Origin: Escherichia coli O157:H7
GTDB lineage: Bacteria; Pseudomonadota; Gammaproteobacteria; Enterobacterales; Enterobacteriaceae
Length of the DNA: 64,000 nt
Reading direction: 5' to 3' (one strand)
Assembly: GCF_013167455.1 (NCBI RefSeq)
Contig: NZ_CP038328.1
In this document: positions 6,001 through 9,000 of the stretch, in pieces
How positions within the stretch are numbered: the stretch's first letter is position 1
Layout of the letters: the number at the start of each line of letters is the position of its first letter
Program-made: the position numbers

Positions 6001-9000
6001 GATAGTCTGGGCTTCCAGCCGAATCTGCGTTATGGCGTGATTGCGCTCGGCGACAGTAGTTATGTGAATTTCTGCAATGGCGGCAAACAGTTCGATGCCT
6101 TGCTGCAGGAACAGAGCGCTCAGCGGGTTGGCGAAATGCTGTTGATTGACGCCAGTGAGAACCCGGAACCGGAAACGGAATCAAATCCGTGGGTCGAACA
6201 GTGGGGCACGCTGTTGTCCTGATATGTTCAGCGAGCGGTAAATGTCGTTTTAGCGGTGCTGAATCGAATCTTTTCAGGCAAATGCCAGTAAAAACTGCTT
6301 CATAGCGCGGATTTTTACTGGCGTTTGCCTGGAGTCAAGCGATCCATTTCATACTCTTCTTTATTTCTTCGTTTTAACCCTTCCTTTCTTGTTCTTGTTT
6401 TCATTTCCGTGAAGTGGATTCCACCGTCCAGGGCTAATGCCAAAATCGGGCCTCATTGAACGCATTAATGTTGTGTTGTTGCACGGTGAGCCGCTATGGC
6501 GCGCTTTTTATACTGCTATTGCCAGATATAAACACGCGCCGTATTCGGCGAACGACCTATAAAAACGGCAAAAAACACCCTACGTCACCTCTGATTTCCT
6601 GGCGATGTCGCAGTCCAGAGTGAGCGTGGCTAACGCGAATTTTCAGGAGTGCAACAATGAGTTCTTTAAGTCAGGCTGCGAGCAGTGTGGAAAAACGCAC
6701 GAATGCTCGTTACTGGATAGTGGTGATGTTGTTTATCGTCACATCCTTCAACTACGGCGACCGCGCTACGCTTTCTATTGCCGGTTCGGAAATGGCCAAA
6801 GATATCGGCCTTGATCCCGTGGGAATGGGCTATGTGTTCTCTGCCTTCTCATGGGCTTATGTTATCGGGCAGATCCCTGGTGGTTGGTTGCTGGATCGTT
6901 TTGGTTCAAAACGCGTCTACTTCTGGTCGATCTTTATCTGGTCGATGTTTACCTTGCTGCAAGGCTTCGTCGATATCTTTAGTGGATTCGGCATTATCGT
7001 TGCCCTGTTTACTCTGCGCTTCCTGGTCGGGCTTGCTGAAGCGCCATCTTTCCCCGGCAACAGTCGCATTGTTGCGGCCTGGTTTCCGGCGCAGGAAAGG
7101 GGAACGGCGGTGTCGATTTTTAACTCCGCTCAATACTTCGCAACGGTGATCTTCGCGCCGATTATGGGCTGGCTGACGCATGAAGTGGGCTGGTCACACG
7201 TCTTCTTCTTTATGGGCGGTCTGGGCATTGCCATCAGCTTTATCTGGTTGAAAGTCATCCACGAGCCAAATCAACATCCGGGGGTAAATCAGAAAGAGCT
7301 GGAGTACATCGCCGCGGGTGGCGCGCTGATCAATATGGATCAGCAAAACACCAAAGTTAAAGTGCCGTTCAGCGTGAAGTGGGGGCAGATCAAACAACTG
7401 CTCGGGTCACGGATGATGATCGGCGTTTATATCGGTCAGTACTGTATCAACGCCCTGACTTACTTTTTCATTACCTGGTTTCCGGTTTATCTGGTGCAGG
7501 CGCGTGGGATGTCGATTCTGAAAGCGGGCTTTGTGGCTTCCGTTCCGGCGGTTTGTGGTTTTATCGGTGGTGTGCTGGGTGGGATTATTTCCGACTGGCT
7601 GATGCGCCGCACGGGATCGCTGAACATTGCGCGTAAAACACCGATCGTAATGGGCATGTTGCTGTCGATGGTGATGGTGTTCTGCAACTACGTCAACGTT
7701 GAGTGGATGATCATCGGCTTTATGGCGCTGGCCTTCTTCGGTAAGGGCATTGGGGCGCTGGGTTGGGCAGTAATGGCAGATACCGCGCCAAAAGAGATCA
7801 GCGGTCTTTCCGGTGGCCTGTTCAACATGTTCGGTAACATTTCTGGCATCGTCACGCCAATCGCAATTGGTTATATCGTTGGCACGACTGGCTCGTTTAA
7901 TGGGGCGCTGATTTATGTTGGTGTTCATGCCTTAATCGCGGTACTGAGCTACCTGGTGCTGGTGGGCGATATCAAGCGTATCGAGCTGAAACCTGTCGTG
8001 GGGCAATAAGATGACGACACAATCCAGTCCTGTTATTACTGATATGAAAGTCATTCCGGTCGCCGGGTACGACAGCATGTTGCTTAATATTGGTGGGGCG
8101 CATAACGCATATTTCACTCGCAATATTGTGGTACTCACCGATAACGCCGGGCATACCGGCATTGGTGAAGCGCCAGGCGGAGAGGTGATTTATCAGACAT
8201 TGGTCGATGCTATTCCGATGGTGCTGGGCTAGGAAGTTGCGCGCCTGAATAAAGTGGTTCAGCAGGTGCATAAAGGTAATCAAGCAGCCGATTTTGATAC
8301 CTTCGGTAAAGGGGCCTGGACCTTTGAATTGCGCGTTAACGCCGTGGCGGCGCTGGAAGCCGCCTTGCTTGACCTGCTAGGTAAGGCGCTGAATGTTCCG
8401 GTCTGCGAACTGTTAGGGCCAGGCAAGCAACGCGATGCTATTACCGTCCTCGGTTATCTTTTTTATATCGGTGATCGGACCAAAACCGATCTTCCTTATC
8501 TGGAAAATACGCCGGGCAACCATGAGTGGTATCAGTTGCGCCATCAGAAAGCGATGAACAGCGAAGCCGTTGTGCGTCTGGCGGAAGCCTCACAGGATCG
8601 CTACGGCTTTAAAGATTTCAAACTTAAGGGCGGCGTGTTACCTGGCGAGCAAGAAATCGACACTGTTCGTGCATTGAAGAAACGCTTCCCGGATGCGCGG
8701 ATTACCGTTGATCCCAACGGTGCATGGCTGCTTGATGAAGCCATTTCTCTGTGCAAAGGGCTGAATGATGTTCTTACCTATGCCGAAGATCCATGCGGCG
8801 CAGAACAGGGCTTCTCCGGACGTGAAGTGATGGCGGAGTTTCGGCGGGCGACCGGCTTGCCCGTCGCGACTAATATGATCGCCACCAACTGGCGCGAAAT
8901 GGGTCATGCGGTGATGCTCAATGCGGTAGATATTCCACTTGCCGATCCGCACTTCTGGACGCTTTCCGGTGCAGTCCGAGTGGCGCAGCTTTGCGACGAC

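What the first reader, a model, noticed from the sequence alone, without database searches (positions are those of the whole stretch)
6277..6330. Long inverted repeat between yqcA and the gudP promoter
Arms of 19 bp with a single mismatch around a 16-nt spacer sit about 55 bp after the yqcA stop and about 330 bp before gudP. There is no U-run on either side, so this is not a simple intrinsic terminator. It could be a protein-binding operator or an RNA processing or stability element.
Basis: seen in the sequence. Interest (0 to 1): 0.3.

Follow-up and report, generated by a model that had tools for sequence, protein, structure and literature searches.

The report
Terminator-derived hairpin flanked by regulator boxes
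The long inverted repeat between yqcA and gudP is real and present in virtually every E. coli; it most likely combines a decayed transcription-terminator hairpin with two conserved protein-binding boxes, which is unannotated but ordinary biology.

Summary
The repeat is real. At DNA level it has 20-bp arms (6275-6294 / 6312-6331), one mismatch and a 17-nt spacer. On the yqcA/gudP strand the RNA folds into 23+4 base pairs (about -40 kcal/mol). It is the longest inverted repeat in the window, single-copy, and present in 5425 of 5426 complete E. coli genomes. It is not annotated and matches no Rfam family.

It sits in a ~100-nt block conserved in 29 species of Enterobacteriaceae. In Citrobacter, Salmonella, Superficieibacter and Raoultella the centre is a hairpin followed by a T-run, which looks like a terminator. 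Stem pairs covary, and the plus strand folds better than the minus strand.

Escherichia differs in three ways. It lost the separate hairpin next to the yqcA stop, weakened the inner stem, and turned the TTTTCA tail into extra pairing. Published bicyclomycin data place a Rho-dependent termination region in this spacer. No 3' end has been mapped at the stem.

The outer arm halves are two boxes (core GCAWWTGC) 43 bp apart. The same motif, spacing and orientation recur in the garP-garD control region, and one copy precedes cdaR, which suggests CdaR binding.

Best reading: a composite of an RNA 3'-end hairpin and a pair of operator boxes. Interest is low to moderate.

The parts
5773..6222 (+). yqcA (flavodoxin) coding sequence, last gene of the yqcC-truC-yqcA cluster; stop codon at 6220-6222
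   Evidence: ORF list. 100% match to K-12 b2790. Window position w corresponds to NC_000913.3 position 2928757 - w.
6259..6266 (+). Conserved CTGAATCG box just upstream of the stem; function unknown
   Evidence: At least 70% conserved across 29 taxa. It resembles a Cra half-site only from memory. The degenerate consensus is not specific here: 22 hits against 13 expected.
6272..6294 (+). 5' strand of the RNA stem (DNA-level left arm is 6275-6294); contains the A-tract 6290-6294
6277..6286 (.). Left box GGCAAATGCC (core GCAAATGC at 6278-6285), a candidate transcription-factor (CdaR?) site
   Evidence: Invariant GGC and near-invariant GCC across 29 taxa. The core motif GCAWWTGC is enriched in the garP-garD and cdaR control regions: 3 hits, and at least 3 in only 2 of 20000 shuffles.
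6295..6310 (+). Inner mini-hairpin: CUGC (6295-6298), 8-nt loop (6299-6306), GCGG (6307-6310); A6311 is bulged
   Evidence: -2.8 kcal/mol. This is the position of strong G+C hairpins in Citrobacter, Superficieibacter, Raoultella and Kosakonia oryzendophytica. The E. coli polymorphisms G6305A and C6306T fall in the loop.
6312..6316 (+). T5 run, the U-tract of the ancestral terminator, now paired with the A-tract
   Evidence: The run is 5-7 T in Escherichia (3 in L002), Salmonella, Raoultella, Superficieibacter and most Citrobacter, 4 in two Citrobacter, and 1-2 in Kosakonia, Phytobacter and Silvania.
6312..6334 (+). 3' strand of the RNA stem (DNA-level right arm is 6312-6331)
   Evidence: The outer 11 pairs (6272-6282 / 6324-6334) are all formed only in Escherichia; several of them are paired in 7-12 of 29 taxa.
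6320..6329 (.). Right box GGCGTTTGCC (core 6321-6328, one mismatch to GCAWWTGC), 43 bp from the left box and in inverted orientation
   Evidence: In other genera this block is GGCATTTTCAC, whose reverse complement GTGAAAATGCC matches 9 of 10 bases of the gar/cdaR box GTGCAAATGC.
6335..6353 (.). Invariant TCAAGCGA-N5-TTCATA block directly 3' of the stem; unexplained
   Evidence: Invariant columns in 29 taxa. It is kept even where the hairpin block is missing (L032, L042). A CRP weight matrix scores it only 3.0 bits.
6350..6410 (+). G-poor, pyrimidine-rich (mostly T) tract with C > G; a possible Rho loading region
   Evidence: 6335-6410 contains A10 C20 G6 T40. C/G is 3.75 in 6341-6400.
6432..6441 (.). 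Third box GGCTAATGCC (core 6433-6440), 224 nt before the gudP ATG
   Evidence: Direct repeat of the left box (family D2). A GCNWWTGC box lies at -205 to -250 (mostly -223 to -236) from the gudP ATG in about two thirds of the genera checked.
6486..6514 (+). Inferred gudP promoter: GTGAGC (6486-6491), 17-nt spacer, TATACT (6509-6514)
   Evidence: Inferred by homology to the promoter-like hit in Citrobacter L008 (GTGAGA-17-TATACT). It was not called in E. coli itself. No transcription start site data were found.
6639..6639 (+). Published best-scoring coordinate of a Rho termination region (K-12 2922118, same strand); resolution is +/- hundreds of nt
   Evidence: Adams et al. 2021, PMC7815308, Supplementary file 2. 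Untreated upstream/downstream reads are 114/23, with bicyclomycin 112/90, Rho score 3.98, p = 9e-8.
6657..8009 (+). gudP (galactarate/glucarate transporter) coding sequence

Best explanation
The repeat is a composite of two overlapping features in a conserved noncoding block.

(1) RNA level. The centre and inner arm halves (AGTAAAAA, centre, TTTTTACT) descend from an intrinsic terminator with an A-tract and a U-tract that lies downstream of yqcA. In the Escherichia lineage three things changed. The separate G+C-rich hairpin next to the yqcA stop was lost. The inner stem decayed to 4 bp. The old TTTTCA tail changed to TTTGCC, which now pairs with the upstream sequence.

As a result, yqcC-truC-yqcA read-through RNA folds into a 23+4-bp hairpin without a U tail. 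This hairpin no longer terminates efficiently by itself. Transcription is stopped further downstream by Rho, which would load on the G-poor, pyrimidine-rich tract at 6350-6410. The hairpin then acts as the barrier that stops 3'-to-5' exonucleases and sets the stable 3' end of the yqcA message. It keeps yqcA transcription out of the inducible gudP promoter. It may also be cut by RNase III.

(2) DNA level. The outer arm halves (CAGGCAAATGCC / GGCGTTTGCCTG) are two copies of a box with core GCAWWTGC. They lie 43 bp apart and face each other. This is the same architecture as the conserved box pair in the garP-garD control region. They are probably bound by the shared activator CdaR and serve as a distal upstream site for gudP.

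Shown: the structure, its conservation, the covariation, the strand bias, the motif sharing and spacing, and the published Rho-sensitive region.

Inferred: the exonuclease-barrier role, the identity of the binding protein, and any effect on gudP.
For: Structure and significance:
- The fold is -57.4 kcal/mol over 138 nt with z = -6.9.
- It is the longest inverted repeat in the window.
- It is single-copy and present in 5425 of 5426 E. coli genomes, and identical in 4318.
- In 9 sampled variant genomes the SNPs fall in the flank (C6270A), in the loop (G6305A, C6306T), or give a G-U pair (C6285T).

Conservation:
- The block is found in 29 of 80 species loci.

Terminator ancestry:
- Composite hairpins score z <= -3 in all 6 Escherichia, most Citrobacter, S. 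arizonae, Superficieibacter, K. oryzendophytica and R. terrigena.
- Different inner-stem sequences occupy the same position, followed by T5-7 (4 in two Citrobacter).
- The Citrobacter orthologue is called terminator-like on both strands.

Base pairing:
- 68.5% of cells are paired, against 47.6% or less with slid partners. The covariation score is 0.170, reached by 3 of 500 shuffles, against a slid maximum of 0.112.
- Pair 35-72 shows CG:10, AU:7, UA:3.

Strand:
- The + strand fold is more stable in 21 of 29 taxa (Wilcoxon p = 0.02). G-U-type pairs number 32 against 17 A-C-type pairs.

Escherichia-specific changes:
- The outer 11 pairs are all formed only in Escherichia.
- All 6 Escherichia lineages lack the CCCTCCC...GGGAGGG hairpin that follows the yqcA stop in most other genera.

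Rho:
- The downstream tract has C20/G6 over 76 nt.
- A bicyclomycin-sensitive termination region is reported at K-12 2922118 on the same strand.
- The class of U-less protective stem-loops with rut sites just downstream is described in PMC6061677.

Boxes:
- GCAWWTGC was defined from the orthologous variation of the left arm. It occurs 3 times in 528 bp of the garP-garD and cdaR upstream DNA. At least 3 hits arise in only 2 of 20000 dinucleotide shuffles.
- The gar boxes face each other at 42-44 bp in five genera, against 43 bp here.
- In the gud block the box spacing is constant, except for a 10-bp deletion in Salmonella.
- The boxes persist in Silvania, Phytobacter and Kosakonia, where the hairpin is gone.
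Against: - No 3' end at or near the stem appears in the curated Term-seq lists for three conditions (PMC7815308). Expression is low: 114 reads per 800 nt.
- The Rho region has about 800-nt resolution, and its best coordinate is 300 nt downstream of the stem. It could therefore reflect premature termination of a gudP leader rather than yqcA read-through.
- Two Escherichia lineages (L002, L003) carry stem-breaking changes.
- The boxes lie about 200-245 bp upstream of the inferred gudP promoter. They are absent from many genera that still have gudP next to yqcA (Enterobacter, the C. freundii group), so they are dispensable.
- No binding data exist for CdaR at any site, and the CdaR motif is not established in the papers I could read.
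- Covariation counts are inflated by relatedness. The real double changes number about 2-3 events.
Confidence: 0.45

Rival explanations
1. A purely RNA-level element that acts as an RNase III processing site. The Escherichia-specific extension to 23 or more contiguous pairs creates a double-stranded substrate. RNase III cuts it and separates the yqcA message from downstream read-through RNA, which then decays. The box resemblance would be incidental.
For: - The stem has 23+4 bp with only G-U wobbles and one bulge.
- Gordon et al. 2017 (PMC5371410, Table S1) list a putative RNase III site at 2922422, 'intergenic gudP-yqcA'. It has 48 reads in the rnc mutant against 0 and 1 in the wild type.
- That position is window 6335, one nucleotide 3' of the stem base.
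- The extension of the stem is specific to Escherichia.
Against: - The same table holds hundreds of low-count entries of the same kind. These include the gudP, garP, cdaR and lacZ coding regions, so the signal may reflect general up-regulation or noise.
- This site had no in vitro test.
- The published in vivo RNase III site map could not be consulted.
- This reading does not explain why the boxes and their spacing are conserved where no hairpin exists.
Confidence: 0.2
2. A purely DNA-level element. The arms are an operator pair, together with phased A/T tracts that bend DNA, for CdaR or another regulator of gudP. The hairpin potential would be a by-product of two facing copies of a palindromic box, perhaps sharpened by template-switch mutation between the arms, and would have no RNA function.
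For: - The motif is shared with the gar and cdaR control regions, in the same orientation and at the same spacing.
- The spacing is conserved, and Salmonella differs by exactly 10 bp, one helical turn.
- In Kosakonia and Phytobacter the T-run is replaced by an A-run at the same place. This keeps an A-tract but abolishes both pairing and termination.
Against: - Pairing is strand-specific: G-U is tolerated and the + strand folds better.
- Pair 35-72 covaries.
- Strong inner hairpins of unrelated sequence are followed by T-runs in many genera. The spacer between the gar boxes has no hairpin.
- The E. coli variant C6285T breaks the box core but keeps the RNA pair.
Confidence: 0.15
3. A decaying relic. 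The element was once a second terminator behind yqcA and no longer has any function in E. coli.
For: - The inner stem is weak and there is no U tail.
- No mapped 3' end and no transcription start site was found.
- Some Escherichia lineages carry mismatches.
- The whole block is absent from many genera.
Against: - The element is identical in 4318 E. coli genomes and shows at most one change in nearly all the rest, with none of the sampled changes breaking the stem.
- In Escherichia the stem became longer through several coordinated substitutions rather than shorter.
Confidence: 0.1
4. A small regulatory RNA, either independent or derived from the yqcA 3' UTR. The conserved CTGAATCG...GGCAAATGCC stretch would be its body and the hairpin its terminator.
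For: Conserved primary sequence lies 5' of a variable hairpin with a T-run in several genera. This is the usual layout of enterobacterial small RNAs.
Against: - There is no Rfam match in E. coli or Salmonella.
- No promoter-like site was found upstream on the + strand.
- E. coli has no U tail for Hfq binding.
- The Term-seq lists contain no 3' end.
- The sequence downstream of the hairpin is equally conserved, which a small RNA would not explain.
Confidence: 0.05

Closest known systems
Protective 3' stem-loops of Rho-terminated mRNAs (Dar and Sorek 2018, PMC6061677)
   Same: An energetically stable stem-loop downstream of a gene with no U-rich tail, a G-poor sequence with C > G right behind it, and a Rho-sensitive termination region in the same spacer.
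   Different: No steady-state 3' end has been mapped at this stem. The stem is unusually long at 23+4 bp and is visibly derived from an intrinsic terminator.
Intrinsic terminators with an A-tract and a U-tract (bidirectional type)
   Same: The layout is A5, hairpin, T5. The orthologues in Citrobacter, Salmonella, Raoultella and Superficieibacter fit the type, and the Citrobacter one is called on both strands.
   Different: In E. coli the hairpin next to the U-tract is only 4 bp (-2.8 kcal/mol). The U-tract is buried in a longer stem that has no U tail.
RNase III-processed hairpins such as those 5' of pnp and in the ahpC-ahpF spacer (Gordon et al. 2017, PMC5371410)
   Same: A long, near-perfect intramolecular duplex between two genes, listed as a putative site in the same study.
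   Different: Read counts are very low and there was no in vitro confirmation. The cleavage positions are unknown.
Box pair in the garP-garD control region
   Same: The same core motif GCAWWTGC, with two copies facing each other 42-44 bp apart and a further related box downstream.
   Different: The gar spacer is A+T-rich with no hairpin. The gud pair lies much further from its gene. Binding by CdaR is inferred for both.
REP/BIME palindromic elements
   Same: An intergenic imperfect palindrome that can stabilise upstream mRNA.
   Different: REP elements are dispersed in hundreds of copies. This sequence occurs once per genome and at a fixed, syntenic position across genera.

Membership tests
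Intrinsic (Rho-independent) terminator | G+C-rich stem-loop immediately followed by a U-tract | tested here: not met
   In E. coli the full stem is followed by AGUCAAGC. The only hairpin abutting the T5 run is 4 bp at -2.8 kcal/mol, and the scan finds no + strand terminator in 5700-6800. The feature is met by the orthologue in Citrobacter sp. MGH106.
Intrinsic (Rho-independent) terminator | Termination does not depend on Rho | tested here: inconclusive
   Published bicyclomycin data show that the downstream/upstream read ratio rises from 0.20 to 0.80 across this spacer. The windows are 800 nt, however, and the source of the reads is unknown.
Protective 3' stem-loop of a Rho-terminated transcript | Stable stem-loop after a gene, not followed by a U-rich sequence | tested here: met
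   The stem folds at about -40 kcal/mol (z = -6.9 for the 138-nt fold) and its tail is AGUCAAGCGAUCC.
Protective 3' stem-loop of a Rho-terminated transcript | C-rich, G-poor (rut-like) sequence directly downstream | tested here: met
   6335-6410 contains C20 and G6 (and T40). C/G is 3.75 in 6341-6400.
Protective 3' stem-loop of a Rho-terminated transcript | Steady-state RNA 3' end immediately 3' of the stem | tested here: inconclusive
   No 3' end for yqcA, gudP or 29224xx appears in the curated Term-seq tables of PMC7815308. These are thresholded lists for a weakly expressed operon. Other data sets were not available as text.
RNase III substrate | About two helical turns (20 bp or more) of near-continuous double-stranded RNA | tested here: met
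   23 contiguous pairs, including several G-U wobbles, then a one-base bulge and 4 more pairs.
RNase III substrate | RNA coverage at the site depends on rnc | tested here: inconclusive
   PMC5371410 Table S1 lists 2922422 (window 6335) with 48 reads against 0 and 1. Many low-count entries of the same kind are listed, including the gudP, garP and cdaR coding regions.
RNase III substrate | Paired cleavages leaving 2-nt 3' overhangs | not testable with these tools
   This needs end-mapping data. The supplement of PMC6212723 is not held.
REP/BIME or other dispersed palindromic repeat | Many copies per genome | tested here: not met
   The arms are the only matches in the window. There is one place per genome in 5425 genomes.
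Any Rfam RNA family | Covariance-model match | tested here: not met
   Only chance-level hits (E of 1 or more, far below the gathering scores) appear in E. coli 5000-7500 and in Salmonella L023. The gathering-score scan of the window finds only CsrB and sok.
Hfq-type small RNA | Own promoter plus a terminator hairpin with a U tail | tested here: not met
   No + strand promoter-like site was found upstream. The E. coli stem has no U tail, and no 3' end is listed.
Operator/activator box pair of the CdaR regulon | Motif shared with the other co-regulated control regions | tested here: met
   GCAWWTGC occurs 3 times in 528 bp of garP-garD and cdaR upstream DNA, and at least 3 hits arise in only 2 of 20000 shuffles. 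The gar boxes are conserved in five genera.
Operator/activator box pair of the CdaR regulon | Conserved spacing and orientation of the two boxes | tested here: met
   The gud boxes are 43 bp apart and face each other (33 bp in Salmonella). The gar boxes are 42-44 bp apart and face each other in five genera.
Operator/activator box pair of the CdaR regulon | Binding by the regulator and an effect on transcription | not testable with these tools
   No footprint, EMSA or ChIP data for CdaR were found. Monterrubio et al. 2000 is not held.
CRP site (for the block 3' of the stem, 6336-6355) | Score comparable to known sites | tested here: not met
   A weight matrix built from 40 Footprint-seq sites (PMC12871828) gives 3.0 bits in E. 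coli (rank 146 in the window) and 6-7.7 bits in other genera. The training minimum is 9.8 bits.

The most novel reading that the evidence does not exclude
The block is a dual-use insulator and enhancer. The activator boxes for gudP flank, and in Escherichia form part of, the hairpin that ends yqcA transcription. Regulator occupancy of the DNA (a roadblock or a loop) and folding of the RNA would then be coupled. For example, CdaR binding could modulate read-through from yqcA into gudP. Alternatively, Escherichia could have converted a terminator into an RNase III-dependent processing site. Either way the element would also give the first sequence definition of the CdaR operator.
Probability: 0.12. 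Interest if true: 0.5.

Novelty: new member of a known kind. Interest (0 to 1): 0.28.

Why it matters
- It puts a name on an unannotated element that is almost invariant in E. coli. The element separates a housekeeping operon (yqcC-truC-yqcA) from an inducible sugar-acid operon (gudPXD).
- It gives a traceable example of an intrinsic terminator that lost its U-tract, after which Rho and a long hairpin appear to do the job.
- As a by-product it yields a testable candidate operator motif (core GCAWWTGC, paired at about 43 bp) for CdaR. That regulator is used in glucarate biosensors, and I could find no published binding site for it.
- None of this overturns current understanding.

Tried and rejected
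- **Rfam.** Scans of E. coli and Salmonella found nothing.
- **Dispersed repeat (REP/BIME).** Rejected because the element is single-copy.
- **Consensus fold of the plain sequence alignment.** RNAalifold found no structure because the hairpin interiors are not alignable. I replaced it with per-sequence folds and with pair counts on the alignable lower stem.
- **Minus-strand promoter.** TTGACT-16-AAAAAT was called once. The -10 element is not conserved in other genera (manual reading), so I rejected it.
- **CRP site at 6336-6355.** The invariant columns coincide with CRP contact positions, but the weight-matrix score is poor. Table 1 of PMC12871828 lists no high-affinity site there.
- **Cra site at 6258-6271.** The degenerate consensus is not specific in this window. 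This was left as an unexplained conserved box.
- **Link between a proximal terminator and loss of the block T-run.** The correlation is not clean, because many proximal hairpins lack T-runs. Only the Escherichia-specific loss of the proximal hairpin is retained.
- **Literature.** There were no hits for yqcA together with gudP. Monterrubio et al. 2000 is not held.
- **Supplements.** They were not held, or held nothing relevant, for PMC9023263, PMC6212723, PMC6061677, PMC4161252, PMC3415461 and PMC12871828.
- **Small ORFs overlapping the region** (6315-6443 on the minus strand, 6325-6459 on the plus strand). I did not pursue them because the underlying sequence is not conserved beyond the boxes.
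Full report
**Observation.** The window is E. 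coli; the 434-bp yqcA-gudP spacer is 100% identical to several complete genomes, for example O157:H7 PV15-279, and identical to K-12 across 6202-6405. yqcA occupies 5773-6222 and gudP 6657-8009, both on the + strand. Window position w corresponds to NC_000913.3 position 2928757 - w.

The inverted repeat is there. GGCAAATGCCAGTAAAAA (6277-6294) faces TTTTTACTGGCGTTTGCC (6312-6329) with one mismatch. It extends to 20-bp arms (6275-6294 / 6312-6331) around a 17-nt spacer. The mismatch (T6283 opposite G6323) is a G-U wobble in + strand RNA and an A-C mismatch in - strand RNA.

As + strand RNA the stem has 23 pairs (6272-6294 / 6312-6334). A bulged A6311 and a 4-bp inner stem (6295-6298 / 6307-6310) with an 8-nt loop follow. 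The 138-nt + strand fold is -57.4 kcal/mol with z = -6.9. The - strand gives -41.1 kcal/mol with z = -4.2. The arms are the only matches to the 18-mer in the window, against 0.15 expected. The repeat ranks first among the inverted repeats of the 64-kb window.

**Not a known element.** Nothing is annotated between yqcA and gudP in K-12 RefSeq. Rfam gives only chance-level hits, in E. coli and in the Salmonella orthologue alike. At gathering score the window holds only CsrB (4242-4601) and sok (43582-43738). The sequence occurs once per genome in 5425 of 5426 complete E. coli genomes and is identical in 4318 of them. It is therefore not a REP-type dispersed repeat.

**Conservation.** I fetched 80 species-level loci through YqcA. 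The yqcA-then-gudP gene order holds in most of them. An iterated nucleotide profile search finds a homologous block of about 100 nt in 29 species. These are Escherichia, part of Citrobacter, Salmonella, Superficieibacter, Silvania, Kosakonia, Phytobacter, Raoultella and some unnamed lineages.

The block is absent from Enterobacter, the C. freundii group and others, whose spacers are shorter. In the alignment (A1) three features are most conserved:
- the flanks CTGAATCG and GGCAWWTGCC on the left;
- GGCRTTTTCA and the invariant TCAAG.GA-N5-TTCA.A on the right;
- the distance between these flanks.

The interior varies in sequence.

**RNA-level evidence.** Per-sequence folds show hairpins of different sequence at the same place. 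Examples are CCUUUC/GAAAGG in Citrobacter, CCCUUU/AAGGG in Superficieibacter, CCACU/AGUGG and CCGC/GCGG in Raoultella, and CCCUGC/GCAGGG in Kosakonia oryzendophytica. In most taxa a run of 5-7 T follows. The Citrobacter sp. MGH106 orthologue is called terminator-like on both strands.

Below this inner hairpin, a lower stem UGCCNGU(A4-5) / (U4-5)ACN'GGCR is kept in Escherichia, Citrobacter, Salmonella and Superficieibacter. I counted pairs on the alignable columns:
- 68.5% of cells are paired, against 47.6% or less when partners are slid.
- The covariation score is 0.170, reached by 3 of 500 shuffles, against a slid maximum of 0.112.
- The N/N' pair occurs as C-G (10), A-U (7) and U-A (3).

The real double changes are few, about 2-3 events, so this is supportive rather than conclusive. 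The + strand folds better than the - strand in 21 of 29 taxa (p = 0.02). G-U-type pairs outnumber A-C-type pairs 32 to 17 in the core stem. Both results point to the yqcA/gudP strand.

**What changed in Escherichia.** The outer 11 pairs (6272-6282 / 6324-6334) are all formed only in Escherichia. Other genera have RTTTTCA after the composite stem, that is, a second U-tract. Escherichia has TTTGCC there, which pairs with the left flank and removes the tail.

The inner stem is weak in all six Escherichia lineages, with the 27-nt inner segment (A-tract, mini-hairpin, T-run) folding at only -3 to -6 kcal/mol. All six also lack the G+C-rich CCCTCCC...GGGAGGG hairpin that follows the yqcA stop in most other genera. 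In Escherichia this repeat is therefore the first, and the only, strong structure behind yqcA. The scan finds no + strand terminator between yqcA and gudP.

Within E. coli, nine sampled variant genomes carry C6270A (flank), G6305A or C6306T (loop), or C6285T (a stem position that becomes G-U). None breaks the stem. Two deeper Escherichia lineages (L002, L003) do carry mismatches.

**Published experiments.** Adams et al. 2021 (PMC7815308) list a Rho termination region at 2922118 on the minus strand of K-12. That is window 6639 on the yqcA/gudP strand. Upstream/downstream reads are 114/23 untreated and 112/90 with bicyclomycin, giving a Rho score of 3.98 and p = 9e-8. The windows are 800 nt. Their curated Term-seq tables contain no 3' end for this spacer.

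The stretch right after the stem is G-poor and pyrimidine-rich with C > G (6335-6410: C20, G6, T40). Dar and Sorek 2018 (PMC6061677) describe exactly this arrangement for Rho-terminated genes. They found stable stem-loops without U tails that mark the trimmed 3' end, with rut sites immediately downstream.

Gordon et al. 2017 (PMC5371410, Table S1) list a putative RNase III site at 2922422. That is window 6335, one base 3' of the stem. It has 48 reads in the rnc mutant against 0 and 1 in the wild type. The same table holds many comparable low-count entries, including the gudP, garP and cdaR coding regions, so I treat this as suggestive only. A transcription start site data set (PMC3415461) has nothing in the spacer.

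**DNA-level evidence.** The left flank varies among orthologues as GCAAATGC, GCATTTGC, GCATATGC and GCAATTGC, which defines the core GCAWWTGC. That core occurs twice in the 374-bp garP-garD spacer (TGTGCAAATGC and GCATATGCACA, facing each other, 42 bp start to start). It occurs once 63 nt before the cdaR start (GCATTTGCACA). Three hits in 528 bp arise in only 2 of 20000 dinucleotide shuffles.

CdaR (SdaR) is the known common regulator of these operons (stated in PMC2996990 and PMC7544201). I fetched garD loci from Salmonella, Klebsiella michiganensis, Enterobacter and Kosakonia. In all of them the gar boxes are conserved at 42-44 bp, with a third related box exactly 22 bp further on.

In the gud block the two boxes are 43 bp apart and also face each other. 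The spacing is constant across genera except for a 10-bp deletion in Salmonella. In most genera the right block GGCATTTTCAC is the reverse complement of GTGAAAATGCC, which matches 9 of 10 bases of the gar/cdaR box. The boxes persist in Silvania, Phytobacter and Kosakonia, where the hairpin and the T-run are gone. A further box (GCTAATGC, 6433-6440) lies at a position where a similar box is found in about two thirds of the genera checked. The assignment to CdaR is an inference. I found no binding data.

**Synthesis.** One is a pair of facing regulator boxes, which form the outer arm halves. The other is the A-tract, hairpin and U-tract of a terminator embedded between them, which form the inner arm halves and the spacer.

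The gar pair has no hairpin between its boxes. It also has no co-directional upstream gene that would need to be terminated. In Escherichia the two features fused into a 23+4-bp hairpin without a U tail, while the separate yqcA-proximal hairpin disappeared.

I propose the following for E. coli. yqcA read-through RNA folds this hairpin. Rho ends transcription downstream on the G-poor tract. The hairpin then sets and protects the 3' end, and RNase III may also act on it. On the DNA, the boxes serve as a distal site for the gud regulator.

Confidence is 0.45 for this composite reading. The rivals are RNA-only with RNase III (0.20), DNA-only (0.15), a relic (0.10) and a small RNA (0.05).

**Novelty and interest.** This is an unannotated member of known kinds of element: terminator-derived 3' hairpins and operator pairs. 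The evolutionary path is neat and the candidate CdaR box is useful, but nothing here is very surprising and the functional steps are inferred. Interest is 0.28.

Noticed in passing
window 6339/6340; L091 (NZ_CP027310.1, strain 2014C-4135): One E. coli strain carries an IS66-family element (ISEc23: tnpA, tnpB, transposase). It is inserted 5 nt 3' of the stem base, between the hairpin and gudP.
   Followed up: partly
window 6335-6353: TCAAGCGA-N5-TTCATA is invariant at TCAAG.GA and TTCA.A in all 29 taxa. It is kept even in L032 and L042, which lack the hairpin. It looks CRP-like by position but scores only 3.0 bits with a matrix built from 40 measured CRP sites. It remains unexplained.
   Followed up: partly
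window 6259-6266: The conserved CTGAATCG box upstream of the stem resembles a Cra (FruR) half-site from memory. The degenerate consensus is not specific in this window: 22 hits against 13 expected.
   Followed up: partly
L082 1530-1620 (K-12 3275030-3275120) and L087-L090: The garP-garD control region holds three conserved boxes in five genera. They are TGTGCAAATGC, then GAGCATATGCAC 42-44 bp later, then GGGCGCTAATGCACA exactly 22 bp after that. A published high-affinity CRP site lies nearby at 3275166 (PMC12871828).
   Followed up: partly
L007-L081, first ~40 nt after the yqcA stop: Most non-Escherichia genera have a G+C-rich CCCTCCC-loop-GGGAGGG hairpin right after yqcA, often without a good T-run. 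All six Escherichia lineages lack it.
   Followed up: yes
L019, L022, L023, L024 about 45 nt upstream of the block: In Salmonella and some Citrobacter a further copy of (A)TGCCAGTAAGCA resembles the left arm ATGCCAGTAAAAA. This suggests there are more box copies than the two in the repeat.
   Followed up: no
window 4242-4601 and 43582-43738: Rfam at gathering score finds CsrB just upstream of yqcC, and a sok antitoxin RNA.
   Followed up: no
window 8011-8232 and 8254-9351: The gene after gudP (gudX in K-12) appears as two ORFs in the ORF list. One is 73 aa and the other is 365 aa with a GTG start. This may reflect a frameshift or stop in this strain, or only the mechanical ORF calling.
   Followed up: no
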